Part shown: positions 16,158-44,083 of the stretch, in pieces
How positions within the stretch are numbered: position 1 is the first letter of the stretch
How the letters are laid out: every line of letters begins with the position of its first letter
Assembly: GCA_001805445.1 (NCBI GenBank)
Contig: MHGF01000028.1
Span: forward strand, 9,651 to 73,650
Source of the DNA: Omnitrophica WOR_2 bacterium GWF2_43_52
GTDB taxonomy: Bacteria > Omnitrophota > Gorgyraeia > Gygaellales > UBA12090
DNA: 64,000 nt
Direction: 5' to 3'
Position numbers and translations under genes: made by a program
Notes under the pieces: model-generated
Seen by the model: the letters and a program-made list of their open reading frames with translations, nothing else
The model's database searches: none
Told to the model about the DNA's origin: nothing

Positions 16158-16189
16158 AGCCTATGAGGGGCGGCCCTGAAGTAATAAGG

Positions 16190-19383: not shown

Positions 19384-19384
19384 G

Positions 19385-19420: not shown

Positions 19421-19432
19421 GAAAGCCAAACG

Positions 19433-20296
19433 TTACGCTTTTATATATTTTCCTATAATAATCTTCAAATCTTCTTTGACCTGTTTTGGGATTAGTTTTC
19501 TATCAGTTACAATTGCATCCTTAAGCGCGCTGGCGCAGCCGCATGTTTTTCGGCCACCTAAAAGAGGAATTAATGTTTTGATAATATTTTTCGCGTTATG
19601 GGTATTTTTGTTTAAATTGGCAATAACCATCTCCAGGGTTACGGCTTCTTCTGACTGATACCAACAATCGTAATCGGTAACCGCGGCCAGGGTGCAATAA
19701 CAGACCTCCATCTCTCTGGCCAGCTTTGCCTCCGCCATATTCGTCATCCCGATAATATCCATTCCCCAGCTGCGATAAAGCCTTGATTCGGCTTTTGTAG
19801 AAAAAGCAGGGCCTTCCATATTCAGATATGTCCCGCCCAAATGCACTCGTGCTGTAGTTTTCGCCGTCGCTTCATAGACCGCTTTCGCCAGCTCGCTGCA
19901 GACAGGCTCCGCGAAACTTATATGGGCAACAATTCCCTTTTCAAAGAAAGTCATGCCGCGCGCCTGATTCGTGCGGTCAACAAACTGGTCGGGAATCACG
20001 AAATCTAAAGGCCTCAGCTCCTCTCTCAGCGATCCACAGGCCGATACAGAGATAAGTGTATCTACTCCTAACTTCTTCATGCCGTAAAGATTAGCGCGAT
20101 AATTAATCTCTGAAGGGCTAATCCTGTGGCCGAGGCCATGGCGAGGCAAAAAAACCACCTGTCTGCCGCCTAAAGTGCCGGTAATATATTTATCAGAAGG
20201 CCTGCCAAAAGGTGTCGTAAGCGATACCCTTTTCACAGCCCTTATTCCCTCAATAGCATATAAACCGCTTCCTCCAATAATTCCGATTTTTCCCAT
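19433..20296 (-). CDS. mtnP: S-methyl-5'-thioadenosine phosphorylase / purine nucleoside phosphorylase family
   Basis: 287 aa. 'GIIGGSGLY' N-terminus, PNP/MTAP fold motifs. Confidence 0.85.
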   Translation of the reverse strand: MGKIGIIGGSGLYAIEGIRAVKRVSLTTPFGRPSDKYITGTLGGRQVVFLPRHGLGHRISPSEINYRANLYGMKKLGVDTLISVSACGSLREELRPLDFVIPDQFVDRTNQARGMTFFEKGIVAHISFAEPVCSELAKAVYEATAKTTARVHLGGTYLNMEGPAFSTKAESRLYRSWGMDIIGMTNMAEAKLAREMEVCYCTLAAVTDYDCWYQSEEAVTLEMVIANLNKNTHNAKNIIKTLIPLLGGRKTCGCASALKDAIVTDRKLIPKQVKEDLKIIIGKYIKA

Positions 20297-20300
20297 TTTT

Positions 20301-21131
20301 CTACTCCTCTTGAGACAGCTCTTTCGCTCGTTTTGAAGCTGCCTTAACCGCTTCCACGAGAGACCCTGTCCTGTGAAGGGCTTCTAAACCCGCCTCGGTA
20401 GTCCCTCCTTTTGAAGTAATTTGTTTTTTCGCTTCAGAAGGAGATATTTTTGCTTTTTCAAAATAAAGATTACTTCCTGTCCCCGTGCCTACGGCTAAAA
20501 ATTCCGCATCCTGCTGGCTAAAGTTAACACTGATAGCCGCATCCGTTAATTCGGTGTTAAAATCCTTGAGGAATTTATCTGGATTTCTCTTATATTCCTG
20601 GTTGCGGGATTCAATCCTATCAAAATAATACCCAGGGCCGCTTCCGGAAACCGCGGTTGCGGCATTCATCAAGCTTTCATCTATAATCAGGCTCTTTCCC
20701 ACATACTCAAAGAGCTTTTTGGCAAAAGCCAAATCTTCATCTAAGGCAAACTTTCCTTTACACAGGCAGGTGAGCCCTTTGCCAATCTTAGCCGGCATAT
20801 TCGGCATTGCCCTGATAACTCTTACCTTCCCTAATCGTTTTTCAATATGTCCGGTACGTATCCCTGCGGCAATAGAAATAAATACTTTGCCGGAAACGGC
20901 ATTCCTTATTTCGCTTATGGTAGTATCGGAATCCTGGGGTTTTACGGCTATGATAACAGTATCAACGTTATTGACTAAAGCGATAGTGTTATCGGCAATA
21001 ACGACTCCCCGCGCGCCTTCAAGCTTACGATTATCCTTATCAAATATCCAAAGCTGATAATAGGCTTTTAATTGCTCGGCAAGAGCAGAGCCCATATTCC
21101 CAAAACCGATAATCCCAAGGGTAGGTTTCAT
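20301..21131 (-). CDS. proC: Pyrroline-5-carboxylate reductase
   Basis: 276 aa. N-terminal Rossmann 'GIIGFGNMG'. Confidence 0.85.
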   Translation of the reverse strand: MKPTLGIIGFGNMGSALAEQLKAYYQLWIFDKDNRKLEGARGVVIADNTIALVNNVDTVIIAVKPQDSDTTISEIRNAVSGKVFISIAAGIRTGHIEKRLGKVRVIRAMPNMPAKIGKGLTCLCKGKFALDEDLAFAKKLFEYVGKSLIIDESLMNAATAVSGSGPGYYFDRIESRNQEYKRNPDKFLKDFNTELTDAAISVNFSQQDAEFLAVGTGTGSNLYFEKAKISPSEAKKQITSKGGTTEAGLEALHRTGSLVEAVKAASKRAKELSQEE

Positions 21132-21805
21132 CCTTCGAAAAGAGCCCTTCCTAAACGCACCATGGTCGCTCCCTCTAAAATCGCAGCCTCAAAATCACCG
21201 GACATCCCCATAGAAAGGATCGAGAGTTTATGGACACTTTTCTGGGAAAGACTATCTCGCAGCTGCCTCAGATCCCTAAAATAGGGGCGTACCTTTTGAG
21301 GGGTATCTACCATAGGAGCAATAGCCATCAGTCCGTTCACGCTTACATTTTTGAGCATTTCTATTTCCTTTAGTGCCTCTCCCACCGCTTGCGGAGCAAA
21401 GCCATACTTAGTTTCCTCAGCCGAGATATTAACCTGAATCAACACCTCTTGTATTTTTTGTATCTTTGACGCCTCCTTATCAATCTCAGACGCCAGATGT
21501 ACACTGTCTACCGAATGAATCAAATCAAACATTTTTACGCAATCGTCTACTTTATTGGTCTGAAGATGGCCTATCATATGCCAGCGCAGCCTCATGAGGT
21601 GGTGGCACTGGGCATAGTGTTGCCTGGCTTCCTGAATTTTATTTTCCCCTATATCTGTTACGCCGGCCTGAGTTACTTCCTGGACTTCTTCTATACTACG
21701 GCCTTTGGTGACCGCAATCAGCGTAATCTCCCGAGGCTGTCTTTGGGCTCTGACACAAGCAAGCCGTATTTTTTCTTGCACCATGGCTACTTTTTGCCGT
21801 ATCAT
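21128..21805 (-). CDS. yggS: YggS-family pyridoxal-phosphate homeostasis protein
   Basis: 225 aa. Alanine-racemase-N-like fold, 'VTKGRS' region. Confidence 0.85.
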   Translation of the reverse strand: MIRQKVAMVQEKIRLACVRAQRQPREITLIAVTKGRSIEEVQEVTQAGVTDIGENKIQEARQHYAQCHHLMRLRWHMIGHLQTNKVDDCVKMFDLIHSVDSVHLASEIDKEASKIQKIQEVLIQVNISAEETKYGFAPQAVGEALKEIEMLKNVSVNGLMAIAPMVDTPQKVRPYFRDLRQLRDSLSQKSVHKLSILSMGMSGDFEAAILEGATMVRLGRALFEG

Positions 21806-21879
21806 GGTAGTGCTCCGTCAAATTAATCCTTATAGATTAACGGCACAGTAGTACACCGTGACATAAATTTCTGTTATCT

Positions 21880-22046
21880 AGGGCGGAGGTCCTGTCAAGG
21901 TTATGTCTTCGCGGGGACGTTCGGCCTGCTCCTGCGGCAGGCCTCACTCGGCGTAAATTTCTGCGCTCCCCGCCGTTGGCGGGGAGACCAAGCCGCAGGA
22001 ATTTCCGTACGCCCCGCTCACACATAACCTTGCCACCCCCGCTTTC
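21880..22046. repeat. X-family structured repeat, copy A (about 165 bp, terminal inverted repeats caaggttatg/cataaccttg)
   Basis: Near-identical to the reverse complement of 49325-49490. Differences lie in hairpin stems and are compensatory (ccccgccgttggcgggg versus ccgcctgcggcgg). Confidence 0.8.
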
Positions 22047-22220
22047 AAGATAAAACGCGATAGCATGAATTTATGTCATAACGCAGTAGTATATGAGTGT
22101 TTATGCGGCTGTTAACACCAAGGAAAAATTGAAGCCGCCTAAACACGCAATAAATTATAGCTTCTTTTGCGTTTTTTACAAGCACTTTTGGTAATAGCAA
22201 GTAATGCGCCACTGAACGAG

Positions 22221-22250
22221 AAAAATGGGTGGCCCCGCCGCAGGCGGGGA
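22221..22250 (-). terminator. Intrinsic terminator after the REC gene
   Basis: Minus-strand hairpin ccccgcctgcggcgggg followed by a T-tract, downstream of the 22320 stop. Confidence 0.5.
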
Positions 22251-22319
22251 CAGGCCTTCAGCCCCGATAACTGGCCGGCTACCAAAGCAAGTCTCCCCAA
22301 AACTTCAAAAGCCAACCGG

Positions 22320-22694
22320 TTAAAGCAAGGATTGTATTGCTTCAAGCAATAGCGCGGGAGGAGAATCCTTTAAAATAAATTTATCTGCGAGGCGGGCATA
22401 AAGAGAATGTTGGTATTTATGGTACGCGGTATAAATAATCACTTTGCTCTTTGGCTTTAAGCATTTTAGGCAATCAAAGACTTCGATACCGTCTTTCTCA
22501 GGCATCATCAAATCCAGCACTATAATATTCGGCTCGCTCTTTTTTAAATAAATTAAGAGCTCATAGCCGTCTTTTACCGTATCAACAGCATATTTATGTT
22601 CCATGAGAATATCCTTTAATGTCTGGCGGATATGCTCATTATCATCCACAACGACTATACGTACCTGTTTTTCAGGATTAAGCTCTTCTTTCAT
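22320..22694 (-). CDS. Stand-alone response regulator receiver (CheY-like)
   Basis: 124 aa REC domain ('VVDDNEHIR...LDLMMP..DG'). Confidence 0.85.
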   Translation of the reverse strand: MKEELNPEKQVRIVVVDDNEHIRQTLKDILMEHKYAVDTVKDGYELLIYLKKSEPNIIVLDLMMPEKDGIEVFDCLKCLKPKSKVIIYTAYHKYQHSLYARLADKFILKDSPPALLLEAIQSLL

Positions 22695-24267
22695 CGCGCT
22701 CTTTCATTGTTTTTAGAAACACCTCAACGATCTCCGGGTCAAATTGGGTTCCAGAGCCCTCCTCGATAATCTTCAAAGCCTCTTTCTTTGTACAGGCCTT
22801 GCGATAGGACCTGTCAGAAATGAGGGCCTGATAGACATCAGCGATAGCAATAATCCGTGCCCCTAAAGGAATTTCTTTGCCTTTAAGCCCCGAGGTATAT
22901 CCGAAGCCGTCAAAACGCTCGTGATGGTAAAGAATCATCGGAACTATCTCTTTTAAGAAATGGATATTCCTGACTATCTCTGCCCCGATCTGCGGGTGGC
23001 GCTTTATCTTTTCCCTTTCCTTTTCGGTAAGGCTGCTTCTTTTGTGCAAGATCTTATCCTGAATTCCGATTTTTCCTAAATCATGGAGTATGGCAGCATG
23101 CTGCAGCATGTCTATCTCTTCTGAAGAAAGATGCAAGTCTTTCCCAATCTCGGTCGCGATTGAAACCATGCTTTCGGAATGTTTCCCGGTATAATAATCC
23201 TTGACTTCGACCGCCTTGGCAAAAGCAAAAATAGACTCCAAAAGCATCTGATTAGTCCGGTCTTCCATCTTTAATAACTTCTTTTTTAATTTCTCAACAT
23301 TTTCCTTGCCTCCGTCTTTAAGGATATCTTTGACTTCCTTAGCGGATATGCTTTGATAAGGGATGAGCACATTACCGCCTTTATCCTTTGCTTCATGCAA
23401 CGCCTTATCTATCGCATCAAGAAGTTCGGAAGGAGTCTCTATGCCGTTTTCAGGGTAACTTGCCACCCCCATGCTTATTCGTAATTTTAAAGACTTGCCC
23501 TTAGGGTCAAAAACATACTCTTTTAACATCTCCAGAAGACGCTCGCCAACAATAACCGCTCCTTCTTTATAGGTATCCGGCATGAGAATGATAAATTCCT
23601 CTCCGCCGTAACGGATTGCCACATCATTAACGCGCATATTGTTTTTCAGATAATCGGCAAATTCTCTCAGGATCTCATCTCCATACTGGTGGCCATAAAC
23701 TTCATTAATAGACTTAAAATAATCCACATCCAACATTATCACCGAAAGAGGCAGGATGTAGCGTTTTGCCCTTTTAAATTCAGAGACTAATCTCTCAATT
23801 AAATACCGGTAGTTATACAATCCGGTCAGGGGATCCTTGAGGCTTAACTCTTTAAGGCGGTCTACGAGGCGCCTATTTTCCAGGGTAAGCGCCTGTGTCT
23901 TCAATGCCTTCGCTAAAGTGATCTTCAGCTCTTCCACATTTAAAGGTTTCTGCAGATATCCAAAGGCCCCTTCTCTCATGGCACTCAGAGTACTTTCTAA
24001 GGACGCAAAAGCGGTGAAAATAATCACCATAGTATCCTCATTGGCTTTTTTTATGGCTTTTAATAAATCCAGGCCTGTACCTTCATCAAGCCTTAAGTCA
24101 ATGAGTGCCGCGTGAAAGAATTTCTTGGCAATACTTTTCTTTGCTAAGGCCGCGCTTGAGGCGGTCGTTACTGCATAGCCCTCTTCCGTTAAGATATCGC
24201 CAAGGGTCTCAAGTATCTGTGTTGTATCATCTACAATAAGTAGAGCAATGTCTTTTTCCATAATCAC
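22678..24267 (-). CDS. Response regulator with REC, GGDEF and HD-GYP domains
   Basis: 529 aa. REC N-terminus, 'RYGGEEF' active-site GGDEF, C-terminal HD domain with 'HHERFDGFGYTSGL' (GYP variant GYT). Confidence 0.85.
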   Translation of the reverse strand: MIMEKDIALLIVDDTTQILETLGDILTEEGYAVTTASSAALAKKSIAKKFFHAALIDLRLDEGTGLDLLKAIKKANEDTMVIIFTAFASLESTLSAMREGAFGYLQKPLNVEELKITLAKALKTQALTLENRRLVDRLKELSLKDPLTGLYNYRYLIERLVSEFKRAKRYILPLSVIMLDVDYFKSINEVYGHQYGDEILREFADYLKNNMRVNDVAIRYGGEEFIILMPDTYKEGAVIVGERLLEMLKEYVFDPKGKSLKLRISMGVASYPENGIETPSELLDAIDKALHEAKDKGGNVLIPYQSISAKEVKDILKDGGKENVEKLKKKLLKMEDRTNQMLLESIFAFAKAVEVKDYYTGKHSESMVSIATEIGKDLHLSSEEIDMLQHAAILHDLGKIGIQDKILHKRSSLTEKEREKIKRHPQIGAEIVRNIHFLKEIVPMILYHHERFDGFGYTSGLKGKEIPLGARIIAIADVYQALISDRSYRKACTKKEALKIIEEGSGTQFDPEIVEVFLKTMKERDERRA

Positions 24268-24286
24268 AAAACCCTTTTCTCCAATT

Positions 24287-26134
24287 TCATGCTCCCGCGT
24301 TTTTATCTACAGGCAGCATAATGGTTACGGCCGCCCCTTTGCCATATTCACTTTCCATCGTAATCTCTCCTCTATGGCCTTTGAGAATAATCTTCGCGGT
24401 GGCTAACCCTAAACCTGTACCCCTTGCCTTGGTGGAAAAGAACGGCTCAAAAATCCTCTTTTTGTCTTCATCCTTAACACCTTTTCCGCTATCACTAAAA
24501 GTAATAATAACATACTTATCGTTTTTTGTCACCTCTATTAGAATTTTCCCATGGCCGTTCATTGACTGAACGGCATTTACAATGATATTGGTAAAGACCG
24601 TGCTCATCTGCACAGGATCGGCTTCTATCAAAGGTAAGCCTTCCGCGGGCATAATAACTTCTATCCCCTCAGGGATAAGCACCCTTTTGATACTTGCTTC
24701 CAGTAATTCCTTAAGTTCGAACATTTGTAAGTCAGGCTGCTTATTCCGGGAAAAAGTCAGGATATTTTCAATAATCCTTTCGGTTCCCACCACCTGCTCA
24801 TCCAATATACTCAAGTGGCGCTGGATCTTCTCATCCTTATCCTGTATCTTCATTTTAAGAAAATACACCGCGTTCCTTATAACCGCAAGCTGATTTCTGA
24901 ATTCATGGGCTATAATTCCCGCCATCCTCCCGATACCGGCAAGCCGCTCCGCGAGCGCAAGCTGCTCTTGGGTATGGATATAGCCGCTGATATCTTCGAA
25001 AATCTCTAAGATTGCCTTCCTGCCATGATAGAGCATACCGGTATGGATAATAAGATAGGTCTTATCGCCGAGCACCCCTTTCACTTCAATTTCTTTCACC
25101 TCGCCAATTTCAACCCCATTTTTTAAAGGACAGTTAACACAGCGCTGCTTATCATCTTTGTAAAGAAGGTAGCATTTTTTCCCTAGGACATTCTCGCCAA
25201 AGGCTTTTTGCATCTTTTCATTCATATACAGTATATCGCCTTCCTCATCAACGATATCTATGCCAAAGGGAATCGTCCTAAGAAGCGCCTCGTCAAATTC
25301 ATGCATACTACGCAACTGCTTTTCCAGCGCGTTAGCCTCTTGAATCTTTAGATGCAAGAGCTTATTTGTCTCTTGCAGCTGGGCCTCATTATACTGGAGT
25401 ATCTGGGTCTTTTGCTGGATACGCTTAAGCATAGGGTTAAAAAGAAATACCCCGGTCATAAAAAGAATACCCGCGGTAATAAGAAACACCCATCCTTCCA
25501 AGGCCTTAAGCCGGCGTATCTTGGCCTCACTTTCTGCCTGATACTGCCAGACCGCCCTATCTAAAGAACGCGGCAGGTTTCCTTCTGCCGCGCTCACAAC
25601 GTATTGGATATTGGGATCTTGAAGGCTCATCTGAGTATCGCTTAAGGTAAGGGATATCCTTGCTTTTATCAAATACTCGCGTACCTGAGCGTCTACGTTG
25701 AGAGGTTCAGAAAAATAGATATCCTTGGCTTCCCGCGAGAGTGCCCCGCGGCGTTTTAAAGGCGTAGTATCGCTTATCAAATCATGATGCGAACTCTCCA
25801 TAAGGCTAATTGCCTTGCTTAATTCTTTTCTCAGCCTTTCTCTCTCTTGGCTGTCCTCTGTTATTGCCAGCGTTAGCGTAAGAAAGGCGATACGCTGAGA
25901 AAACATTCTCTGCCTGCCGCTGGTATTGATAAGAGCCGCGCTGCCTTCGTTTGACTTAATATTTTCTCTCAGGATCACATAATTGGCCAAAGCAAGCGCC
26001 GCCAAAATACCCAATACGCAAAGATACAAAAAAGTAAACCCCGTTAAAAATGACGGAGCTTTTACCCCGCCGTTTATGGCGGGGCTTTTTAACGGCGTAA
26101 AGGAAAATACTGGCGCGGCCTTTGTTTTTTTCAT
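24287..26134 (-). CDS. Sensor histidine kinase with periplasmic PilJ/NarX-type domain and PAS-like region
   Basis: 615 aa. Two TM segments flank a domain with 'SGRQRMFSQR'. H-box 'HEFRNQL', HATPase G-boxes 'GTGLGLA'. Confidence 0.85.
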   Translation of the reverse strand: MKKTKAAPVFSFTPLKSPAINGGVKAPSFLTGFTFLYLCVLGILAALALANYVILRENIKSNEGSAALINTSGRQRMFSQRIAFLTLTLAITEDSQERERLRKELSKAISLMESSHHDLISDTTPLKRRGALSREAKDIYFSEPLNVDAQVREYLIKARISLTLSDTQMSLQDPNIQYVVSAAEGNLPRSLDRAVWQYQAESEAKIRRLKALEGWVFLITAGILFMTGVFLFNPMLKRIQQKTQILQYNEAQLQETNKLLHLKIQEANALEKQLRSMHEFDEALLRTIPFGIDIVDEEGDILYMNEKMQKAFGENVLGKKCYLLYKDDKQRCVNCPLKNGVEIGEVKEIEVKGVLGDKTYLIIHTGMLYHGRKAILEIFEDISGYIHTQEQLALAERLAGIGRMAGIIAHEFRNQLAVIRNAVYFLKMKIQDKDEKIQRHLSILDEQVVGTERIIENILTFSRNKQPDLQMFELKELLEASIKRVLIPEGIEVIMPAEGLPLIEADPVQMSTVFTNIIVNAVQSMNGHGKILIEVTKNDKYVIITFSDSGKGVKDEDKKRIFEPFFSTKARGTGLGLATAKIILKGHRGEITMESEYGKGAAVTIMLPVDKNAGA

Positions 26135-26150
26135 AGCTTTACCACGATCA

Positions 26151-26666
26151 TCATCTGAGCCATCCGCAGAAGGCTAAGGCGCAGAGCGTCTTTGCATCGA
26201 TAATTTTACCTTGGGTAAAAAGCCTGCGAACCTGTTGCCTGGTGACACTATATGTTTCTATCACTTCATCTTCTTCGGGACAAGCTCTCCCTACTTTTGT
26301 AAGGCCTTCCGCCTTATAGAGGGTTATTTTCTCTGTTGAATATCCCGGAACAGGGAAAATTTCACCCAAGCGGGTAAATTTTTTAGCCGTATATCCGGTT
26401 TCTTCCACAATCTCACGTTGAGCGCACAGAAGCGGTGATTCCTTATGCCTGCGTGTACCCGCGGGCAATTCGTAAAGATACGCGCCCACAACCGGCCTGA
26501 ATTGTTTTAAAAGAAGTATCCGCGAACTTGAGATAAAAGCCGCGATAAGCGCTGCTCCCGGATGCTTAATGATTTCTATCTCGGAGGTAACCTTGTTTGG
26601 CAGCAAAAACTTCTCGCGAAAAAGACAAAGCAGTTTTCCTTTATAAAGCACGCCTGTTTTTGCCAT
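26151..26666 (-). CDS. NUDIX hydrolase (ADP-ribose pyrophosphatase-like)
   Basis: 171 aa. Nudix box 'REIVEETGYT'. Confidence 0.8.
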   Translation of the reverse strand: MAKTGVLYKGKLLCLFREKFLLPNKVTSEIEIIKHPGAALIAAFISSSRILLLKQFRPVVGAYLYELPAGTRRHKESPLLCAQREIVEETGYTAKKFTRLGEIFPVPGYSTEKITLYKAEGLTKVGRACPEEDEVIETYSVTRQQVRRLFTQGKIIDAKTLCALAFCGWLR

Positions 26667-26707: not shown

Positions 26708-27928
26708 TTAGAAATATTCATGGTACAGTTCTTTAACCTTTTGGATTATCTTCTGATACATATTTCCGTAGGAGGAAAGTTTAAAGAGGTTTATCTGGGG
26801 ATGAGAGAGAACGGCATATTTCACTAAGCCGATACCAGCGCTATAACTAAGGTCACCAGCAGAAACATCTTCTATTGTGGCGATATGCGTTGGGGCTCCC
26901 AACGCGTGTTCAAGGCTTTCTATGAACCCTTCTAAAAGCGCTTCTTTCCCGTTTACTACCACGCCCGCGGGAAATTCAAATGCCCCGCGGTATGACACGA
27001 AGGATTCTTTTATTTGGGTAAAAAACTCCTGGAGCCGGTTCTCGATAATAGAGGCAATAGCCTTACGCTTAATAGGACGATATCCTTGCTCTTTTTTTAT
27101 CAACACCTCCTGCTCCGGGCTCACATGAGATGCCAAAGCGCATCCGTGGGAAGCCTTTACTTCTTCAGCTAACGCCTGAGGCAGTTTTAGCTCCGCGGCA
27201 ATCGCCTCAGTAATGTGGCGCGAACCAAAATTAAAAGACTCATATCCACGCAGTATTCCATCCTTGAAAATAAGCATTTGGCTCATGTCAAAGCCGATAT
27301 CAAGAAGACAACATCCCTTTTTTTTTGCTTCATCCGATACTACCGCTAAACTCGTGGCTACACCCGATGCCACGACAGCCCTGATTTTATAGCCCGCGCG
27401 GTCAACCGCGGAAACTATATTTTGGATATCTCTGCTTAAGGCGGTAACCAGGAGCAGATCCGCTCCAAGCTTATGGCCATAGAGCCCCGCGGGCTCAAGG
27501 ACCCTATTCTGATTATCTATGGTATATTCTTGAGGCGCCTGATACAAAATCTGTTCTTCTATGGTAAACCCGAGGCTGTAGGCCTGCTGATTAACCTTTG
27601 CCACATCGCCTGAAGTAATAATCTTATTGGCGCGCTCTGAAAGAGGTATTGTGCAAAGAGAATGCGTTGCTTTTATCTGCTGGCTGTGCATGGCTACATA
27701 AAAAGATTTAATTCTCACTCCCGTTGCGGCAGACAATGCTTCCATCACTGCCGCCACGCAATCACTTAAGGCACCTACATCCGTTACCCTTCCCTGCGTA
27801 ACACCCGCGGATACTCCAGACCGGCATTGAATCTTAATTATTTTTCCGGCCTTGTTTACCACTGCCATAACAGCCGTTAGAGTGCCGGCTGAAATATCTA
27901 ACGCATGATATACTGTACCTTTTCCCAT
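26708..27928 (-). CDS. ftsA: Cell division protein FtsA
   Basis: 406 aa actin-like ATPase. 'LLDIGFDMSQMLIFKDG' and 'GSRHITEAIA' motifs. Position after ftsQ. Confidence 0.85.
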   Translation of the reverse strand: MGKGTVYHALDISAGTLTAVMAVVNKAGKIIKIQCRSGVSAGVTQGRVTDVGALSDCVAAVMEALSAATGVRIKSFYVAMHSQQIKATHSLCTIPLSERANKIITSGDVAKVNQQAYSLGFTIEEQILYQAPQEYTIDNQNRVLEPAGLYGHKLGADLLLVTALSRDIQNIVSAVDRAGYKIRAVVASGVATSLAVVSDEAKKKGCCLLDIGFDMSQMLIFKDGILRGYESFNFGSRHITEAIAAELKLPQALAEEVKASHGCALASHVSPEQEVLIKKEQGYRPIKRKAIASIIENRLQEFFTQIKESFVSYRGAFEFPAGVVVNGKEALLEGFIESLEHALGAPTHIATIEDVSAGDLSYSAGIGLVKYAVLSHPQINLFKLSSYGNMYQKIIQKVKELYHEYF

Positions 27929-27968: not shown

Positions 27969-28811
27969 TCACAATCCCTTATCCTTCTTCTCTAAGACTA
28001 CTGGTGAAAAGGTATTCGTGAGGTCAATATATGCAATCCCTGCCAAAGAGCCTTTCCCTTCTTTTCTGGCATTCCCTGATGCTTTTCTTTTTTCTAAAAG
28101 CAGGCCCAGCACAGCAATGGTCTCGACAGGTTTATCGGGATCAAACCTTACCTCAATCTGAGCCTTGGAGAAGTTATCTTTTGACAAATCATCAGGCAGC
28201 GTATTTTCAGCGATAAAGAATGAACTGGTTTTTTGCTTGGCGAGGTTTATCCTGATGATAGTGTAGTCTTTTAAAGAATGCATCCTGTTTTTTTCCTGAA
28301 TGAGAACAAGTATCTTTTTTGCCTCTTCAAGGGCATAATACTTCGCGTTTGCCTGCTGAAACTTATGCTCGAGCCCCTGGATAACCGGCAATCCCTCATA
28401 AGCAATGTCCGATGCCCCAGCCATGAGCATCCCTGACTCATCCACACAATGATAACGCAAAAACTTCACTTGCGCGATCGCGATACGCCTCTTTAAGGTA
28501 AACCGAAGTTCACCGGGAAGCCTGCGCTCCAGCCTGACGCATTCACTATCCCCTGTTTCCTGTTCGACCTGGTTCTTAAGACGGCCTAAATCTACGGAGA
28601 AAATGTTCCTGCCGAAAAGCCTTCGCGCGAAACTCCTATAGGCGCTTTCGTTTACTCCTACAATAGTAACCTTATTGATGTTAAAATACGCGTAACGGTT
28701 GAAAAAGCTTTTAAGCATGAGAAAAAAAAGAAAAATGCTTACGGCAACGAGCGAAAACACAACGATTATTTTCCCCGGGACATTGATTGTTTTATTTTTT
28801 CTTTTTGGCAT
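27969..28811 (-). CDS. ftsQ: Cell division protein FtsQ/DivIB
   Basis: 280 aa. N-terminal TM, POTRA-like region. Position between ddl and ftsA. Confidence 0.75.
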   Translation of the reverse strand: MPKRKNKTINVPGKIIVVFSLVAVSIFLFFLMLKSFFNRYAYFNINKVTIVGVNESAYRSFARRLFGRNIFSVDLGRLKNQVEQETGDSECVRLERRLPGELRFTLKRRIAIAQVKFLRYHCVDESGMLMAGASDIAYEGLPVIQGLEHKFQQANAKYYALEEAKKILVLIQEKNRMHSLKDYTIIRINLAKQKTSSFFIAENTLPDDLSKDNFSKAQIEVRFDPDKPVETIAVLGLLLEKRKASGNARKEGKGSLAGIAYIDLTNTFSPVVLEKKDKGL

Positions 28812-28841: not shown

Positions 28842-29849
28842 CTATAAGGATGGTATGGCCGCGTTTTGATTTTCCTGTTGAAGCGTTACCTTGCGCGCGT
28901 TTATTTTAACCTGGTCGGCCCTGCCGGATAAAGCAGCCTCAGATATCCTCACAATAAGCTCAGGGAAAGGAATCCCTTTATACAGCGCGGCCTTAGGAAG
29001 CAGGCTTGTGGCGGTAAATCCCGGGATGGTATTTACCTCAAGAATAAAAGGTGTATTATCATGACGCAAAATAATATCTACCCGAGAAAAGAAAGAACAT
29101 CCGAGCGCCTCATGCGCCGCGTACGCGGCCTCCTTAACTACCCGCATAAGCTCTAAAGATAATGCCGCGGGCACACAGTACTCAGTCTGGCCTGGCTCAT
29201 ACTTGGCCCTATAATCAAAAAAACGGCGCTTCGGCTTTATTTCAATTGCCTCTAAAGGAGAATCTTCAAATATGCCCACGGTCAATTCTCTGCCCGCGAT
29301 ATATTCCTCAACGATTACTTTTCTATCGTAGCGGAACGCCTCATCTATCGCGCCTTTTAATTGTGTTTGATTTTCAACAATTGAAAGCCCGATACTTGAA
29401 CCTCCGCCGGCAGGTTTAACAACCAAAGGAAACGTTAACACGCTTTTGCTATTTTTACGATTTTTCTCTATACTGTAATACCTCGGGCAGAGTAACCCCG
29501 CGTCCTGAAAAATTTTTCTTGAGGCAATTTTATCCATTGCCAGAGCGCTTGCCCGCGGCCCGGAACCAGTATAAGGAATACCTATTTCCTCTAAAATAGA
29601 CTGTATCTTCCCATCTTCGCCAAAACTACCATGGAGCGCCAAGAATGCGAGGCCGATATCATAGGAAAGCAGTAAATCCCGCGCATACTGTTTATCAGCT
29701 TTCTTAATATCAATCTCTAGTGCCTCACTACCTCGGGATTTGAGCGCGGCCGCTACTGCTTTGCCTGATTTCAGGGAAACATCCCGCTCTGACGAAACCC
29801 CTCCCATAACCACACCAATACGGATGCCTTCCATCATCTTTGCCTCCAT
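28842..29849 (-). CDS. ddl: D-alanine--D-alanine ligase
   Basis: 335 aa ATP-grasp with Ddl motifs. Confidence 0.9.
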   Translation of the reverse strand: MEAKMMEGIRIGVVMGGVSSERDVSLKSGKAVAAALKSRGSEALEIDIKKADKQYARDLLLSYDIGLAFLALHGSFGEDGKIQSILEEIGIPYTGSGPRASALAMDKIASRKIFQDAGLLCPRYYSIEKNRKNSKSVLTFPLVVKPAGGGSSIGLSIVENQTQLKGAIDEAFRYDRKVIVEEYIAGRELTVGIFEDSPLEAIEIKPKRRFFDYRAKYEPGQTEYCVPAALSLELMRVVKEAAYAAHEALGCSFFSRVDIILRHDNTPFILEVNTIPGFTATSLLPKAALYKGIPFPELIVRISEAALSGRADQVKINARKVTLQQENQNAAIPSL

Positions 29850-29898
29850 CGTACAGAGTATTTTGTTGACGTTTTAAATTTTTTTACGGAAAAACTCC

Positions 29899-30783
29899 CT
29901 ATACAATCTGTATTTCAGCCTCTAAGGTAAGGTTAAATTTCTTCCTTACCTGGGTTTTCATAAGCTTCATTAAAGTTAGGATATCTTTGGCCTCGGCATT
30001 ACCGCGGTTAATGATAAAATTCGCGTGTTTGGTGCTGATCATCGCGTCTCCAATGTGCTTTCCCTTCAGGCCGCATAAATCAATAAGTTTTCCGCTTGAC
30101 TGCCCGCTGCTATTCTTAAAAATACATCCGGCGGAAAATCCATCCAAGCCTTGAGTTTCTTTGCGGTGGTTAAGGAATTTCCGCATCTTGATCTTAATAT
30201 TCTCCTTTCTTTTCTTAAACAGCCTGAACCGGGCACTGACAATGATATATTTTTTAAGATTAGAATAACGGTAGCCGAATTCCAAATCATGGCGGTGCAA
30301 TGTTTTTATGAGCCCGTTGTGTGTCATTACCTCAAGCTCATGGACAAAAGGGCCTATTTCCAGACGCTCAGGCCATCCGACCCCGGCATTAAGCATGACT
30401 GCCCCTCCCACACTTGCCGGTATCCCGCTTAAGAATTCTAATCCTCCCAAACCATGGTCATAAGCGGCCTTCAGCAAGGAAGAAACCCTCACCCCAGCAC
30501 CGGCAACGATATCGTTATCTTCGGCACTACATGCCTTAAAATCTCCCGCGCCTAAGTGGAGTGCCAAGGGAAGGCTTTTTTTGGTAATCAACAGTTTCGA
30601 ACCGCATCCAATCACAAGCCAGGTTAGCTTGCGGGCCTTTATTTTTTTAACCAGGAGCGCTAAGGATTGCCTGTTGAAAGGCTCAATCCATAGTCTTGCC
30701 ACAGGGCCTAGTCGCAGTGTGGTATGCCTGGCTAACGGCTCGTCAAAAAGTATTCTGGCGTTTAAACCGCTGTACCAACTCAT
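29899..30783 (-). CDS. murB: UDP-N-acetylenolpyruvoylglucosamine reductase
   Basis: 294 aa FAD-binding MurB. Confidence 0.85.
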   Translation of the reverse strand: MSWYSGLNARILFDEPLARHTTLRLGPVARLWIEPFNRQSLALLVKKIKARKLTWLVIGCGSKLLITKKSLPLALHLGAGDFKACSAEDNDIVAGAGVRVSSLLKAAYDHGLGGLEFLSGIPASVGGAVMLNAGVGWPERLEIGPFVHELEVMTHNGLIKTLHRHDLEFGYRYSNLKKYIIVSARFRLFKKRKENIKIKMRKFLNHRKETQGLDGFSAGCIFKNSSGQSSGKLIDLCGLKGKHIGDAMISTKHANFIINRGNAEAKDILTLMKLMKTQVRKKFNLTLEAEIQIV

Positions 30784-32188
30784 CGCTTACTTTTCCGATA
30801 TCCCCCGCGCCCAAGGTAAGAATGACATCTGCCTTTTGAGCAATCCGCAGGATATAATCAATAATGTGTTCTTTCTTAAGGTAGACTACGTCTAAATCTG
30901 TAAACCGCTCTTTTATCGCATGGGCAAGCGCTTCTGAAGATACGCCAGAGAGAGGGCGCTCAGAAGCAGCATATATATCGGTAAGTATGAGGCAATCGGC
31001 CGACTGGAAACAGCCGGTAAATTCTTCCATTAGGAATTTAGTCCGGCTATAGCGATGAGGCTGAAAGATAACGATAATCCGCTTATGCGCGATATTCTTT
31101 GCCGCTTCAATAGTGGCCTTAATCTCGCTGGGGTGATGTCCATAATCATCGATTATCTTTATGCCGTTACTATCATATTTGAGCTCGAACCTGCGCTCGG
31201 TGCCTTTAAACGCGGCTAAGCCTGCCTCGATATTTTCCAAGCTAATGCCTAAGTGCCTGCCCAAGGCAATGACGGCTAAGGCATTTGAAACATTATGTTT
31301 CCCGGATAACGCGATGGTAGCTTTCCCCAAAGCTTCCCCTTTATAACAATACGTAAAGCTAGACGAAAAATCATTCAGGTGTATCTCGCGCGCTGAGAAA
31401 TCGTTATCCGGCAATAGCCCAAAATAAGCTATCTGCTTTTGGTAGCCTTGAGTAATCTGGCGTAGTGCCGGGTCATCACCACAGCACAAAAGCCAGCCCG
31501 CGCTTTTAATATGCGCGATAAAATTCGTATAGGCGTTGAGAATATCCTGCCAGCTATGATAAAAATCCAAATGCTCCTTATCAATGTTGGTAACAATAGC
31601 ATAGGTAGGCCGATAATAGAGAAACGTACCGTCGGATTCATCGGCCTCGGCAACAAAATAATCGCTTTTTCCCACACAACAGTTATCATCAAGATTCCGT
31701 AAAATGCCTCCGATGGCAACCGTAGGGCAAAAACCGCAATGCATAAGCAGATGGCTTGCCAGCGCGGTAGTAGTGGTTTTCCCGTGCGCGCCGCTGACGG
31801 CAATACAAATCTTATCCTGCATCAAGCCCGCAAGCGCCTGGGCCCTTCTCATAATAAAAAGCCCTTTTGCTTTTGCCGCTACTAATTCAGGATTATCTTC
31901 GGTAATAGCTGAAGAATACACCACCGTTTCCGCGTTGCCAAGATGCAGAGCGTCGTGGCCCTTAAAGATAACTATCCCTTCTTGCGATAATTTCCTCGTA
32001 AGAGCGCTCTCCTTCAAATCTGAGCCGCTTATGCGATAGCCCTGCTTTATTAAAATCGAAGCAATACCGCTCATTCCGATCCCGCCGATACCGATAAAAT
32101 GAACACGCTTACCTTCAAATTTTGGTTTTTCGGAAGGCTCTGCTTGATTCGCGCACTTGTATGCTCGATGAGTATCTCTTGCCAACAC
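30743..32188 (-). CDS. murC: UDP-N-acetylmuramate--L-alanine ligase
   Basis: 481 aa Mur ligase. 'GTNGKTTTT'-type P-loop ('HGKTTTTAL'). Confidence 0.9.
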   Translation of the reverse strand: MLARDTHRAYKCANQAEPSEKPKFEGKRVHFIGIGGIGMSGIASILIKQGYRISGSDLKESALTRKLSQEGIVIFKGHDALHLGNAETVVYSSAITEDNPELVAAKAKGLFIMRRAQALAGLMQDKICIAVSGAHGKTTTTALASHLLMHCGFCPTVAIGGILRNLDDNCCVGKSDYFVAEADESDGTFLYYRPTYAIVTNIDKEHLDFYHSWQDILNAYTNFIAHIKSAGWLLCCGDDPALRQITQGYQKQIAYFGLLPDNDFSAREIHLNDFSSSFTYCYKGEALGKATIALSGKHNVSNALAVIALGRHLGISLENIEAGLAAFKGTERRFELKYDSNGIKIIDDYGHHPSEIKATIEAAKNIAHKRIIVIFQPHRYSRTKFLMEEFTGCFQSADCLILTDIYAASERPLSGVSSEALAHAIKERFTDLDVVYLKKEHIIDYILRIAQKADVILTLGAGDIGKVSDELVQRFKRQNTF

Positions 32189-32200
32189 GCTCGACCTTTC

Positions 32201-33094
32201 TTATTCCTTTACATACCTAAGCCAGCCTTTGTCTAATTCTTCAAGATTTTTAAAAACTCTATATGATTCTTCTATTGCCTGATCAAAGTTCTTGCGCTCC
32301 TTCAAGGCTTTACACAACCGTACAAAATTATCTCTACCGAATTTGGTAATCAAATACTCGACCACGCTGATTGCCTCTGTATAGTAAAGGTCAACAACTT
32401 CTGTATCTTTAACAAACATGATATTGATTTCTGAAAGCTTAGTGAGCGGAATAAGCTTTCTTTCTTCTATTGCCTTGAGGAGTTTCTTTTTAATGTCCTT
32501 TCTCCTGAATTTTTCCTGGTACATCGCGACCCCCTCATCGAGCCAAATGGGGGCATTGTTCTGGATGCCGATAAACTCCCTGAAAATAATATGCCCTAAT
32601 TCATGGGGAAGCAACGATTGGAAGAACCCCTGAGCCCAGGGATAAGTCTCGATTGCCTTTTCATGATAAGAGGCAACCCCTCCGCTCCATGAAGGCTTGC
32701 CGGTCTTTTCCTGATAATCCTCGGCATTATTATAAATATAAATCTTTGCCCGGTTATCCCAACGCCAAAAGTTGTAACGGGTAAATCCTAATTCCTCTGC
32801 AATGCTTTTGTAATATTCCTCCGCGTTTTCAACAGTTTTCCGGACAAAATCTTCCTTAACCTCTTTATAGTATACGATAAAATGCTCGCTTTTCTGTGTA
32901 TTCCACTTTTCATCGTCACCGGCAAATAAAAAGCGCTGGCCCGAGAATAAAAGAAATACCGCAAAAAGAATGCGTGTTGTCATTCCAGAGCATGTACGCG
33001 TTTTCTCCTCCATGATTACCTTATGCGTAGACATTGTATCAAGATAAAAATCTGACTGCGAGCCTCGCCAATCGTGCCGCGCCATCGCTAACAC
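32201..33094 (-). CDS. Membrane-anchored putative gluzincin metallopeptidase (HExxH...E) inserted in the dcw cluster
   Basis: 297 aa. N-terminal TM or signal. 'HELGHIIF' plus a downstream 'WLDEGVAMYQE' third-ligand Glu. Confidence 0.6.
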   Translation of the reverse strand: MLAMARHDWRGSQSDFYLDTMSTHKVIMEEKTRTCSGMTTRILFAVFLLFSGQRFLFAGDDEKWNTQKSEHFIVYYKEVKEDFVRKTVENAEEYYKSIAEELGFTRYNFWRWDNRAKIYIYNNAEDYQEKTGKPSWSGGVASYHEKAIETYPWAQGFFQSLLPHELGHIIFREFIGIQNNAPIWLDEGVAMYQEKFRRKDIKKKLLKAIEERKLIPLTKLSEINIMFVKDTEVVDLYYTEAISVVEYLITKFGRDNFVRLCKALKERKNFDQAIEESYRVFKNLEELDKGWLRYVKE

Positions 33095-34160
33095 AAAATG
33101 TCCGAATATTTTTTTCTAGCGCCTGGCGTTCCGCCGCTGAATCCATCAGGCCGCGGATAGTTTCGCTTAACCTAACAGCAGTAAGCTCATGTTCTTCGAT
33201 TACCACGGCTGCATTGTGCTTGGCTAACACAGAGGCGTTCTCCCGCTGATGGCCGCCGGCATAAGGATACGGGATCACTATCGCTGCCTTTCCATAATAA
33301 GCAAGCTCAGCGATTGTTCCAGCGCCCGCGCGGCAGACTACCACATCGGCTGCGCTATAGGCCCATTGCATCTGGGGTAAAAAATCAAAAAGGCGATGTT
33401 TAATTGTAGTATAGCGGGAACTTTTTTGCAAGCCTAAATAATCACGCCTTCCCGCGATATGAATAGCTTGCACCTCTCTTTGAGAGTCTAACAAAGAGAG
33501 CGCCTGGCTAAATTCATTGTTTATTCGATGCGACCCCTGACTGCCGCCAAGGGCCATAATGGTAAATCTGTCCTCCAAGTTAAAAAACCCGAGCGCCTCT
33601 TTCCTGTTTTTTGGCGTTAACGAAGCCCGTAAGGGGTTTCCCGTAAAAACACACCGGGGGCTAATTTTTTCTGACTCCTTAAAGCTTACGGCGATCGCGT
33701 CCGCGAAAGGGCTTAACCATTTATTTGCTTTCCCTAAGGATACGTTCTGTTCATGGAGTAGTATATGTTTCTTCAATAACGCCGCCTCAAGAAGTATAGG
33801 AAAACTCACATAAGAGCCAAAACCTATAACGACATCCGGCCTGAACTTTTCAATAATAAAAAATGACTCTATAAAAGATTTTATAAAACCGTATACTGCC
33901 TGCAATAATTTTTTAAGCGGCCCGCTAAAAGGGCGGATAGAAATCAGGTAGCACTGATACGGGGCAATGTTACTTTCTATTCCGTTGCGCCGCGAGGAAA
34001 CAAAGGCAATCGTGCACAAAGGGTACTGCCGCGCGATACACTCGGCAAATGAAAGCGCCGGATAAAGATGCCCCGCGCTAGCCCCCGCGGCAATAAGGAT
34101 ACGCCATGCTCCGGCAGTCTTTGATGCGCTCTCTGAAGATAACGAATGCTCAGGGCTCAT
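33039..34160 (-). CDS. murG: UDP-N-acetylglucosamine--N-acetylmuramyl-(pentapeptide) pyrophosphoryl-undecaprenol N-acetylglucosamine transferase
   Basis: 373 aa GT28 family. Confidence 0.9.
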   Translation of the reverse strand: MSPEHSLSSESASKTAGAWRILIAAGASAGHLYPALSFAECIARQYPLCTIAFVSSRRNGIESNIAPYQCYLISIRPFSGPLKKLLQAVYGFIKSFIESFFIIEKFRPDVVIGFGSYVSFPILLEAALLKKHILLHEQNVSLGKANKWLSPFADAIAVSFKESEKISPRCVFTGNPLRASLTPKNRKEALGFFNLEDRFTIMALGGSQGSHRINNEFSQALSLLDSQREVQAIHIAGRRDYLGLQKSSRYTTIKHRLFDFLPQMQWAYSAADVVVCRAGAGTIAELAYYGKAAIVIPYPYAGGHQRENASVLAKHNAAVVIEEHELTAVRLSETIRGLMDSAAERQALEKNIRTFCVSDGAARLARLAVRFLS

Positions 34161-35251: not shown

Positions 35252-35320
35252 ATCAGTGAGCGGGTAAACGGGTTCGCGGGTGAACGGGTTAACTCATAAA
35301 CCCGCTCACCGGCTCACTCG

Positions 35321-36604: not shown

Positions 36605-36650
36605 ACTCTCTACTCTCTACTCTCTACTCTCTACTCTCTACTCTCTACTT
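36603..36650. repeat. Heptanucleotide tandem repeat (ctctact x about 7) in the murD-mraY intergenic region
   Basis: Read directly from the sequence. Coordinates plus or minus 2. Confidence 0.85.
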
Positions 36651-36651
36651 T

Positions 36652-37746: not shown

Positions 37747-37857
37747 AGCTTACAATAACAGAGAGTACAGCATCAAACGCTGGAGCTCCGCATAGAAATA
37801 AAGTAGCGTTGAGAATTTAAGCATACTGCCGAACGACGGTTATCGCACATGCACATA

Positions 37858-38048
37858 CATATAGTGCTCCGTTAACTTAATTCTTACTGGTATAGCGAAA
37901 GTTAACTCCGCACTTCCGCTAGGGGGGCAAGCCCCCCTTCGGCGCTCTCCGCCTACGGCGGATCGCTGAGCACCCCCCAAACGTGAGGGACGGTCTCCCC
38001 CACACCCCCTTACTGCGTTATGACATCAAAAATTAATATTACAACGCA
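37858..38048. repeat. Y-family structured repeat, copy 2, inside the dcw cluster (murF-mraY spacer)
   Basis: tagtgctccgttaa box, hairpins with covariation relative to copy 3, ctgagcaccccccaaacgtg core. Confidence 0.8.
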
Positions 38049-38078
38049 GTAGACACTATAAAGCCTTACAGATTATGA

Positions 38079-42613: not shown

Positions 42614-42679
42614 TGAAGGTCTCTATACTGACTCCATCTCTTTCTAAAAACGAAAGGTGGAGATAATAAGTTAAAGCCT

Positions 42680-44064: not shown

Positions 44065-44083
44065 TCTTTTTTCTTATAAAACC

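What the first reader, a model, noticed from the sequence alone, without database searches (positions are those of the whole stretch)
22320..26666. ftsZ is missing from its canonical slot; a NUDIX hydrolase and a c-di-GMP two-component module occupy it
The dcw cluster is complete and syntenic from mraZ to ftsQ-ftsA. After ftsA the expected ftsZ is absent. In its place are NUDIX, a histidine kinase (PilJ-type periplasmic sensor), a REC-GGDEF-HD-GYP regulator (GGDEF intact as RYGGEEF, HD-GYP present as HD...GYT) and a stand-alone REC. The usual post-ftsZ genes yggS and proC follow. FtsA, FtsQ, FtsL, FtsI and FtsW are all present, so FtsZ is presumably encoded elsewhere or replaced. Either way, c-di-GMP turnover is wired into the division operon here.
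Basis: partly seen in the sequence, partly recalled or inferred. Interest (0 to 1): 0.55.

Follow-up and report, generated by a model that had tools for sequence, protein, structure and literature searches.

The report
FtsZ-less division cluster with c-di-GMP cassette
This window comes from an Omnitrophota bacterium, a phylum already reported to lack the division protein FtsZ, and the four genes after ftsA are a signalling cassette common in that phylum that one family carries at this spot, not a replacement for FtsZ.

Summary
On the minus strand the dcw cluster runs mraZ to ftsQ-ftsA. Next come a NUDIX hydrolase, a PilJ-PAS histidine kinase, a REC-GGDEF-HD-GYP regulator and a single REC, then yggS-proC. 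No ftsZ or relic of it lies anywhere in the 64 kb.

The window is Omnitrophota, genus GWF2-43-52, family UBA12090. The same gene order recurs in at least six independent assemblies, so it is not a chimeric join.

None of 80 Omnitrophota species loci has ftsZ within 10 kb of ftsA. Two non-Omnitrophota controls have it directly after ftsA. In 31 species ftsA directly abuts yggS or proC. So ftsZ is absent across the sampled phylum, and the absence does not depend on the cassette. Published surveys already report that the phylum lacks ftsZ.

The four-gene block sits after ftsA only in the window species and five related species. The regulator belongs to a strongly conserved Omnitrophota family. 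At six other loci it again sits beside kinases and single RECs, never beside ftsA.

Tight gene spacing suggests co-transcription with ftsA. A role in division is unproven. Retention of a bona fide FtsA without FtsZ is the most interesting aspect.

The parts
28842..44545 (-). dcw cluster from mraZ to ddl: mraZ, rsmH, FtsL-like ORF, ftsI, murE, murF, mraY, murD, ftsW, murG, Peptidase_MA_2, murC, murB, ddl
   Evidence: Pfam hits. The FtsL-like ORF 42680-43123 has no family hit. It is assigned from its position and from a transmembrane segment followed by a helical region.
27969..28811 (-). ftsQ (divergent)
   Evidence: Only a weak Pfam FtsQ_DivIB_C hit (E=0.091). A profile of 40 Omnitrophota orthologues (alignment A2) matches FtsQ chains in the PDB at E=6.5e-9.
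26708..27928 (-). ftsA, last canonical dcw gene; no ftsZ follows it
   Evidence: Pfam SHS2_FTSA and FtsA. NCBIfam TIGR01174, 218 bits, above its cut-off. Aligns with E. coli-type FtsA structures over residues 10-376. The C-terminal tail is nearly invariant across 21 homologues.
26151..26666 (-). NUDIX hydrolase, ADP-sugar pyrophosphatase-like, 41 bp after ftsA
   Evidence: Pfam NUDIX. The Nudix box GtrrhkE-x7-REIVEETGY is intact. NudE and YffH models hit below their cut-offs. Present in L008-L010 but not detected in L007 or L011.
24287..26134 (-). Sensor histidine kinase: two transmembrane segments flanking a PilJ-type periplasmic domain, then a PAS domain with a CX12CX2C motif, HisKA and HATPase_c
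   Evidence: Pfam hits. H-box HEFRN and the N, G1, F and G2 boxes can be read in the translation.
22678..24267 (-). Response regulator REC-GGDEF-HD-GYP (the gene callers used by the look-up of encoding contigs start it at ATG 24261, giving 527 aa)
   Evidence: Pfam hits. Translation shows the phospho-acceptor Asp, I-site RVND, RYGGEEF, HD, HHE and DGFGYT. These residues are invariant in 37 homologues (alignment A3). Closest solved structures are Leptospira DgcR and PleD for REC-GGDEF, and V-cGAP3 and PmGH for HD-GYP.
22320..22694 (-). Single-domain response regulator (CheY-like), overlapping the preceding gene by 17 bp
   Evidence: Pfam Response_reg. The DD, D, T and K residues are present. 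67-71% identical in L008-L011.
21806..22319 (-). Intergenic gap between REC and yggS. It holds a GC hairpin at 22233-22249 followed by a T run (possible operon end), a promoter-like TTGTAA-16-TATAAT at 22154-22181, and a long-hairpin repeat of about 250 bp at 21837-22090
   Evidence: Sequence read. Promoter scan. A second copy of the repeat lies at 49271-49494. Fold energy z-score -7.4. No Rfam match. In related species the gap is only 52-92 bp.
19433..21805 (-). yggS, proC and a purine/uridine phosphorylase-family gene. In many other Omnitrophota these directly abut ftsA
   Evidence: Pfam. TIGR00044. Synteny.

Best explanation
This is the 3' end of the division and cell-wall (dcw) operon of an Omnitrophota bacterium (genus GWF2-43-52, family UBA12090).

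The phylum has lost ftsZ but kept ftsA, ftsQ, ftsI, ftsW and the mur genes. In many members the loss left ftsA directly next to yggS-proC.

In family UBA12090 a signalling unit sits at that junction. It consists of a sensor histidine kinase, a REC-GGDEF-HD-GYP regulator and a single-domain REC, with a NUDIX hydrolase gene in front of it. The regulator family is widespread in Omnitrophota.

Proposed mechanism (inferred):
- The kinase senses a periplasmic signal through its PilJ-type domain, or a cytoplasmic signal through its Cys-bearing PAS domain.
- It phosphorylates the regulator's REC domain, shifting the balance between c-di-GMP synthesis (GGDEF) and hydrolysis (HD-GYP).
- The single REC acts as a competing phosphate sink or an allosteric partner.
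- The block is transcribed with ftsA.

Shown here: gene content, intact catalytic motifs, synteny, and absence of ftsZ from this locus across the sampled phylum.
Inferred: co-transcription, phosphotransfer partners, enzyme activities.
Not shown: any effect on division.
For: ftsZ is absent at this locus:
- Nothing in the window.
- None of 80 Omnitrophota species loci has ftsZ within 10 kb of ftsA. No relic appears even at low stringency, where the best hit has E=1.2.
- Positive controls: the non-Omnitrophota ftsA loci L095 and L096 have ftsZ directly after ftsA (Pfam Tubulin and FtsZ_C; tblastn E about 1e-92).

Literature:
- The Seymour 2023 supplement states that Omnitrophota lack ftsZ apart from one archaeal-like occurrence. 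It lists this species with a 97%-complete MAG.
- Pende 2021 found 4 of 5 Omnitrophica proteomes without FtsZ, 3 of which have FtsA.

The region is not an artefact: the same order occurs in at least six independent assemblies and in related species with short gaps.

The block is lineage-restricted:
- 31 species loci have ftsA followed directly by yggS or proC.
- Only L007-L011 and the window species have the block.

The cassette is conserved elsewhere in the phylum:
- 1567 homologues of the regulator at E<=1e-60; the 120 best listed share 54-100% identity and the same architecture.
- Six other contexts were examined, none near ftsA. Each has kinases or single RECs next to the regulator.

Catalytic residues are intact and invariant.

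The genes are tightly packed: gaps of 41, 16 and 19 bp and a 17-bp overlap here; a 14-bp overlap to 28-bp gap after ftsA in relatives.
Against: - I could not search the whole genome of this organism for ftsZ. Genome-wide absence rests on published marker and HMM surveys, which could miss a very divergent homologue. The same Seymour supplement also reports ftsY as missing, which suggests threshold-dependent calls.
- One 2025 survey groups Omnitrophota with phyla that have a conserved dcw cluster and does not flag ftsZ loss. Rivas-Marin 2016 and the 2017 Rivas-Marin & Devos review list Omnitrophica among FtsZ-bearing groups on the basis of the single genome OLB16.
- Co-transcription is inferred from spacing only. 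Promoter-like and terminator-like matches in the region are not above the shuffled expectation.
- The HD-GYP motif reads GYT. Its best solved match is a cGAMP-specific enzyme, so the substrate is not certain.
Confidence: 0.8

Rival explanations
1. ftsZ has only moved: it is encoded elsewhere in this genome, and division is a normal Z-ring process.
For: Only 64 kb of a genome of about 2.5 Mb was examined directly. The 2017 Rivas-Marin & Devos review counts Omnitrophica among FtsZ-bearing PVC groups. One genome labelled Omnitrophica (OLB16) has FtsZ next to FtsA. Retention of FtsA, whose best-known role is to tether FtsZ, would be easiest to explain this way.
Against: The Seymour 2023 supplement covers 421 genomes and finds a single ftsZ, 89% identical to an archaeal protein and judged to be contamination or a recent transfer. 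This species has a 97%-complete MAG. Pende 2021 found no FtsZ in 4 of 5 Omnitrophica proteomes. About 1.4 Mb of Omnitrophota DNA around ftsA contains no ftsZ.
Confidence: 0.05
2. The c-di-GMP cassette is functionally part of the division machinery. It controls, or compensates for, FtsZ-less division in this family, in the manner of the DivK-PleD cell-cycle module of Caulobacter.
For: The block has been kept directly behind ftsA in six species whose FtsA proteins are only about 50% identical. Gaps are very short or the genes overlap. The regulator and single REC are 67-71% identical across these species, more conserved than FtsA at 49-53%. A single REC paired with a REC-GGDEF regulator resembles divK-pleD (own knowledge).
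Against: - Most Omnitrophota lack anything between ftsA and yggS.
- The same regulator family sits in unrelated contexts elsewhere: next to a Ser/Thr-kinase hybrid, rpsU, or efflux genes.
- The junction after ftsA also holds unrelated inserts in other species, such as an ECF sigma and anti-sigma pair or other kinases.
- The window also encodes MshEN-domain pilus or secretion ATPases next to another GGDEF protein. These are a more conventional c-di-GMP output.
Confidence: 0.12
3. The region is an assembly artefact or chimeric join, and ftsZ was lost at a contig junction.
For: The REC|yggS gap holds a repeated hairpin element. Two contigs (L003, L004) diverge inside it, and L006 has an indel there.
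Against: At least six assemblies from different projects give the same order. Related species keep REC followed by yggS with gaps of 52-92 bp and no repeat. ftsA to NUDIX is a 41-bp junction with no repeat. Base composition is uniform across the region.
Confidence: 0.01

Closest known systems
FtsZ-less division clusters of other PVC bacteria (Chlamydiota, Planctomycetota)
   Same: Same superphylum. ftsZ is absent while ftsQ, ftsI, ftsW and the peptidoglycan synthesis genes remain. mreB, mreC, mreD, pbp2 and rodA are also present nearby.
   Different: Those phyla also lack FtsA (Pende 2021; iScience 2025). Here a full-length FtsA that passes its model cut-off is retained, and the dcw cluster is intact and collinear rather than fragmented.
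Caulobacter DivJ/PleC-DivK-PleD module (own knowledge)
   Same: A histidine kinase, a single-domain response regulator and a REC-GGDEF regulator are encoded together. PleD is among the closest solved homologues of the REC-GGDEF part.
   Different: PleD is REC-REC-GGDEF and has no HD-GYP domain. Here the kinase is encoded in the same block. No link to polarity or the cell cycle is shown.
RpfC/RpfG-type two-component systems with an HD-GYP output, and solved HD-GYP enzymes (PmGH 4MCW, V-cGAP3 5Z7C)
   Same: A REC-controlled HD-GYP domain with the full set of HD, H, HHE and D metal ligands.
   Different: Here the HD-GYP domain is fused to an intact GGDEF domain with an I-site. The signature reads GY[T/S] instead of GYP throughout the family.
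Leptospira DgcR (REC-GGDEF, PDB 6ZXM)
   Same: Best solved match over residues 9-302 (E=2.7e-45). It is a phosphorylation-activated diguanylate cyclase with the same layout for that part.
   Different: DgcR has no C-terminal HD-GYP domain and no dcw context.

Membership tests
Canonical dcw cluster (mraZ ... ftsQ-ftsA-ftsZ) | Collinear order mraZ-rsmH-ftsL-ftsI-murE-murF-mraY-murD-ftsW-murG-murC-murB-ddl-ftsQ-ftsA | tested here: met
   There is one extra gene (Peptidase_MA_2) between murG and murC. ftsL is assigned by position only.
Canonical dcw cluster (mraZ ... ftsQ-ftsA-ftsZ) | ftsZ immediately downstream of ftsA | tested here: not met
   No Tubulin or FtsZ_C ORF and no tblastn hit in the window. 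None in 80 Omnitrophota loci. Positive controls L095 and L096 were detected.
FtsZ-less PVC divisome of the Chlamydiota/Planctomycetota type | No ftsZ in the genome | tested here: inconclusive
   Absent from the 64-kb window and from all related loci. Genome-wide absence rests on the literature and not on a search I could run.
FtsZ-less PVC divisome of the Chlamydiota/Planctomycetota type | ftsA lost together with ftsZ | tested here: not met
   FtsA is present and passes TIGR01174. It is conserved in all 80 loci.
FtsA (TIGR01174) | Whole-protein score above the curated cut-off, with the SHS2 (1C) insert | tested here: met
   218.1 bits against a cut-off of 175.85. Pfam SHS2_FTSA at residues 84-162.
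FtsA (TIGR01174) | Binds the FtsZ C-terminal peptide and tethers it to the membrane | not testable with these tools
   No partner FtsZ was found. A conserved C-terminal tail (K397, Y402, Y405, F406) is compatible with a membrane-targeting helix, but this is inference.
GGDEF diguanylate cyclase | GG[D/E]EF active-site motif and RxxD I-site five residues upstream | tested here: met
   RVND-VAIRY-GGEEF. These residues are invariant or nearly invariant in 37 homologues.
HD-GYP phosphodiesterase | HD, H, HHE and D metal-ligand set | tested here: met
   H, HD, H, HHE and D can be read. H393, D394, H446, H447, E448 and D451 are invariant. Pfam HD_5 E=2.2e-40.
HD-GYP phosphodiesterase | GYP signature | tested here: not met
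   The motif reads GYT here. The family consensus is G-Y-S. The Gly and Tyr are invariant, but the Pro is replaced.
Two-component phosphorelay | Kinase H-box with N, G1, F and G2 boxes; receiver Asp, Thr and Lys in both regulators | tested here: met
Two-component phosphorelay | The kinase phosphorylates these two receivers | not testable with these tools
   Supported only by adjacency here and in five related species, and by kinases or single RECs next to the regulator at six other loci.
NUDIX hydrolase, NudE/YffH ADP-sugar subfamily | Nudix box GX5EX7REUXEEXGU | tested here: met
   GTRRHKE-SPLLCAQ-REIVEETGY. Pfam NUDIX 44.4 bits.
NUDIX hydrolase, NudE/YffH ADP-sugar subfamily | Score above the subfamily cut-off | tested here: not met
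   NudE 56 bits against a cut-off of 169. TIGR00052 51.7 bits against 79.55.

The most novel reading that the evidence does not exclude
Omnitrophota divide with an FtsA-centred divisome that needs no FtsZ. FtsA filaments would organise FtsQ, FtsL, FtsI and FtsW directly. In family UBA12090 this machinery would be placed under a c-di-GMP switch co-transcribed with ftsA, which would be a second-messenger checkpoint on a Z-ring-free division apparatus.
Probability: 0.1. Interest if true: 0.75.

Novelty: new member of a known kind. Interest (0 to 1): 0.35.

Why it matters

Omnitrophota are a third, less discussed case. They keep an intact, collinear dcw cluster and a bona fide FtsA but have no ftsZ. 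The ftsA|yggS junction seen in dozens of species looks like a clean excision of ftsZ. FtsA may therefore have a role that does not depend on FtsZ.

The phylum-level absence of ftsZ is already published. The c-di-GMP cassette at this junction is a family-level feature with no demonstrated tie to division. The practical value of this window is as a well-documented example and a source of constructs (FtsA, and the kinase, regulator and single REC), rather than as a discovery.

Tried and rejected
- Looked for an ftsZ relic in the ftsA-NUDIX and REC-yggS gaps and downstream of ftsA in all loci at low stringency. Found nothing.
- Suspected that the 335-350-aa protein following ftsA and a REC gene in deep Omnitrophota lineages was a divergent FtsZ. 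It is QueA, with the RFYSYGDAM motif.
- Asked whether the single REC after ftsA in those deep lineages is orthologous to the window's REC. Identity is only about 30%, which is background for receiver domains.
- Suspected a structured regulatory RNA upstream of yggS. There is no Rfam match, and it turned out to be a repeated hairpin element with a second copy at 49271-49494.
- Considered using a large protein search to find an Omnitrophota FtsZ. Rejected, because the top-ranked hits would follow the query's own taxon and a negative result would say nothing.
- Tried to find the FtsA-FtsZ contact residues in the literature, to test whether the binding site has decayed. The primary paper is not in the searchable library, so this test was dropped.

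Full report
**What is in the sequence**

All genes in the region lie on the minus strand. Pfam and NCBIfam scans give this order:

- mraZ, rsmH, and a 147-aa ORF with a transmembrane segment and a helical region (FtsL by position only)
- ftsI, murE, murF, mraY, murD, ftsW, murG
- a Peptidase_MA_2 gene
- murC, murB, ddl
- a 280-aa ORF, then ftsA (26708-27928)
- NUDIX (26151-26666)
- a histidine kinase (24287-26134) with a PilJ-type periplasmic domain, PAS, HisKA and HATPase_c
- a REC-GGDEF-HD-GYP regulator (22678-24267)
- a single REC (22320-22694)
- a 514-bp gap
- yggS, proC, a phosphorylase-family gene and ileS

The 280-aa ORF has no significant Pfam hit. A profile of 40 orthologues matches solved FtsQ structures at E=6.5e-9. 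FtsA passes the curated TIGR01174 cut-off (218 against 175.85 bits). It aligns with E. coli-type FtsA structures over nearly its full length.

The regulator has the acceptor Asp, an RVND I-site, RYGGEEF, HD, HHE and DGFGYT. The kinase has all its catalytic boxes. The Nudix box is intact. The single REC has its conserved residues.

**No ftsZ in the window**

None of the ORFs scanned has a Tubulin or FtsZ_C domain. I checked the E. coli FtsZ query against the PDB first and it is exact (808 bits over 383 residues). tblastn with it gives nothing better than E=0.33 in the 64 kb, and nothing in the two gaps flanking the block.

**Not an artefact**

The identical FtsA protein lies in the same gene order in at least six independent assemblies. 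These include two NCBI MAGs and ENA groundwater assemblies. FtsA is named in NCBI as from 'Omnitrophica WOR_2 bacterium GWF2_43_52'. The Seymour 2023 supplementary table places that species in GTDB p__Omnitrophota, c__Koll11, o__GIF10, f__UBA12090, g__GWF2-43-52, with a MAG 97% complete and 2.47 Mb long.

Two contigs (L003, L004) diverge downstream of the REC gene, and L006 has an indel there. The break lies inside a repeated hairpin element (see 'The REC|yggS gap' below). Related species keep REC followed by yggS with gaps of 52-92 bp and no repeat. The join is therefore real.

**ftsZ is missing across the sampled phylum**

A scan of species-representative genomes with an FtsA alignment returned 80 loci, nearly all labelled Omnitrophota, with up to 10 kb on each side. 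None has an FtsZ match. At low stringency the best hit in about 1.4 Mb has E=1.2.

As positive controls I used the two most distant FtsA homologues. One is from Latescibacterota; the other is an unnamed metagenome contig. Both have a Tubulin plus FtsZ_C gene directly after ftsA, and my tblastn finds them at E about 1e-92.

The 74 informative loci sort by the gene immediately after ftsA as follows:

| Gene after ftsA | Loci |
|---|---|
| yggS or proC, then PNP-ileS-dksA-lspA-lgt-rluD | 31 |
| NUDIX or kinase block as in the window (L007-L011) | 5 |
| a different kinase (L042) | 1 |
| a single REC (mostly deep lineages, where a small opposite-strand membrane ORF separates it from ftsA and queA follows it) | 12 |
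| assorted other genes, including ECF sigma and anti-sigma pairs and other kinases | 25 |

The simplest reading is that ftsZ was lost from an ancestral ftsA-ftsZ-yggS arrangement. The vacated junction later accepted different inserts in different lineages.

**This is already on record**

- The Seymour et al. [quoted passage not shown] That one sequence is 89% identical to an archaeal protein.
- Pende et al. 2021 list Omnitrophica among the FtsZ-less PVC phyla. Their data table shows no FtsZ in 4 of 5 genomes, with FtsA present in 3 of those 4.
- Rivas-Marin et al. 2016 found FtsZ only in genome OLB16 and left the question open.
- The 2017 Rivas-Marin & Devos review and a 2025 survey still group the phylum with FtsZ-bearing or dcw-conserved phyla.

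I could not search this organism's whole genome myself. Genome-wide absence therefore rests on those surveys.

**What the four genes are**

The regulator is not a foreign oddity. A protein search found 1567 homologues at E<=1e-60. The best 120 share the REC-GGDEF-HD-GYP architecture and a similar length, at 54-100% identity. Where they carry a taxon name, it is almost always Omnitrophota.

In an alignment of 37 of them, the acceptor Asp, I-site, GGEEF, HD and HHE-D-G-x-G-Y positions are invariant or nearly so. The signature reads GY[S/T] rather than GYP.

In six other genomic contexts the regulator is never near ftsA. It always has histidine kinases or single-domain RECs beside it, usually both. 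The sensor domains of the kinases vary. So this is a widespread Omnitrophota signalling unit, and only family UBA12090 carries it at the ftsA|yggS junction. The NUDIX gene accompanies it only in part of that family.

Within the family the regulator and single REC are 67-71% identical to the window's copies. That is more conserved than FtsA (49-53%) or the kinase (49-57%).

**How it most likely works**

The block is packed with gaps of 41, 16 and 19 bp and a 17-bp overlap. In relatives the first gene of the block overlaps ftsA or follows it within 28 bp. This points to co-transcription with the end of the dcw operon.

I infer the following:
- A standard phosphorelay runs from the kinase to the regulator's REC domain.
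- Phosphorylation switches net c-di-GMP synthesis against hydrolysis.
- The single REC is a phosphate sink or allosteric partner, as DivK is for the PleD system (own knowledge).

Nothing here shows that the output acts on division. The window also holds two MshEN-domain pilus or secretion ATPases, a free-standing MshEN protein and a HAMP-GAF-GGDEF protein. MshEN is a c-di-GMP receptor domain (own knowledge), so pili or secretion are a more conventional target.

**The REC|yggS gap**

After the REC stop codon there is a 7-bp GC hairpin followed by a T run. Next comes a promoter-like TTGTAA-16-TATAAT. After that lies a long imperfect hairpin of about 250 bp. It folds at -119.7 kcal/mol with a z-score of -7.4. 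An inverted copy 85-96% identical lies at 49271-49494, and related pieces lie in the murF|mraY gap. It has no Rfam match. It looks like a miniature mobile or repeat element, and it explains the strain-level breakpoints.

**Verdict**

The 'replacement' reading is not supported, and 'encoded elsewhere' is unlikely. Absence of ftsZ is a known phylum trait. The cassette's position is a new but modest, family-level detail. What remains interesting is that a conserved FtsA persists without FtsZ, which the literature has barely discussed.

Noticed in passing
window 21837-22090 and 49271-49494; related pieces at 37862-38029 and 27-74: A long imperfect hairpin repeat of about 250 bp lies in intergenic gaps. 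The two near-full copies are 85-96% identical and in opposite orientation. Fold energy is -119.7 kcal/mol (z-score -7.4), and there is no Rfam match. It looks like a miniature mobile element. Contigs L003 and L004 diverge inside it, and L006 has an indel in it.
   Followed up: partly
window 32201-33094: A Peptidase_MA_2 gene sits inside the dcw cluster between murG and murC. It is present at that position in most of the 80 Omnitrophota loci.
   Followed up: partly
window 223-5645: Two PilB/GspE-type ATPases with MshEN domains, a stand-alone MshEN protein and a HAMP-GAF-GGDEF protein lie in a row. This is a likely c-di-GMP-controlled pilus or secretion module, and a more conventional output for c-di-GMP in this organism than division.
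   Followed up: no
window 7667-21805: The dcw cluster continues on the same strand into yggS-proC-PNP-ileS-dksA-lspA-lgt-rluD, a coiled-coil membrane ORF (13081-13869), then mreB-mreC-mreD-pbp2-rodA. Much of this order is conserved across the phylum, so divisome and elongasome genes lie within 37 kb of each other.
   Followed up: partly
loci L065-L086, about 11200-13000: In deep Omnitrophota lineages ftsA is followed by a conserved membrane ORF of about 120 aa on the other strand (motif IRQWDNRS), then a single REC, then queA.
   Followed up: partly
loci L016 and L029, downstream of ftsA: An ECF-type sigma factor and a putative anti-sigma membrane protein are inserted between ftsA and yggS. 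This is another example of regulatory genes landing at this junction.
   Followed up: no
window 63350-63464 and 57796-57871: An FMN riboswitch (73 bits) and a tRNA-Pro (CGG anticodon).
   Followed up: no
window 25100-25200 (kinase residues about 320-335): The PAS domain of the kinase carries a CX12CX2C motif (KKCYLLYKDDKQRCVNCPLK). This could bind a metal or sense redox state.
   Followed up: no
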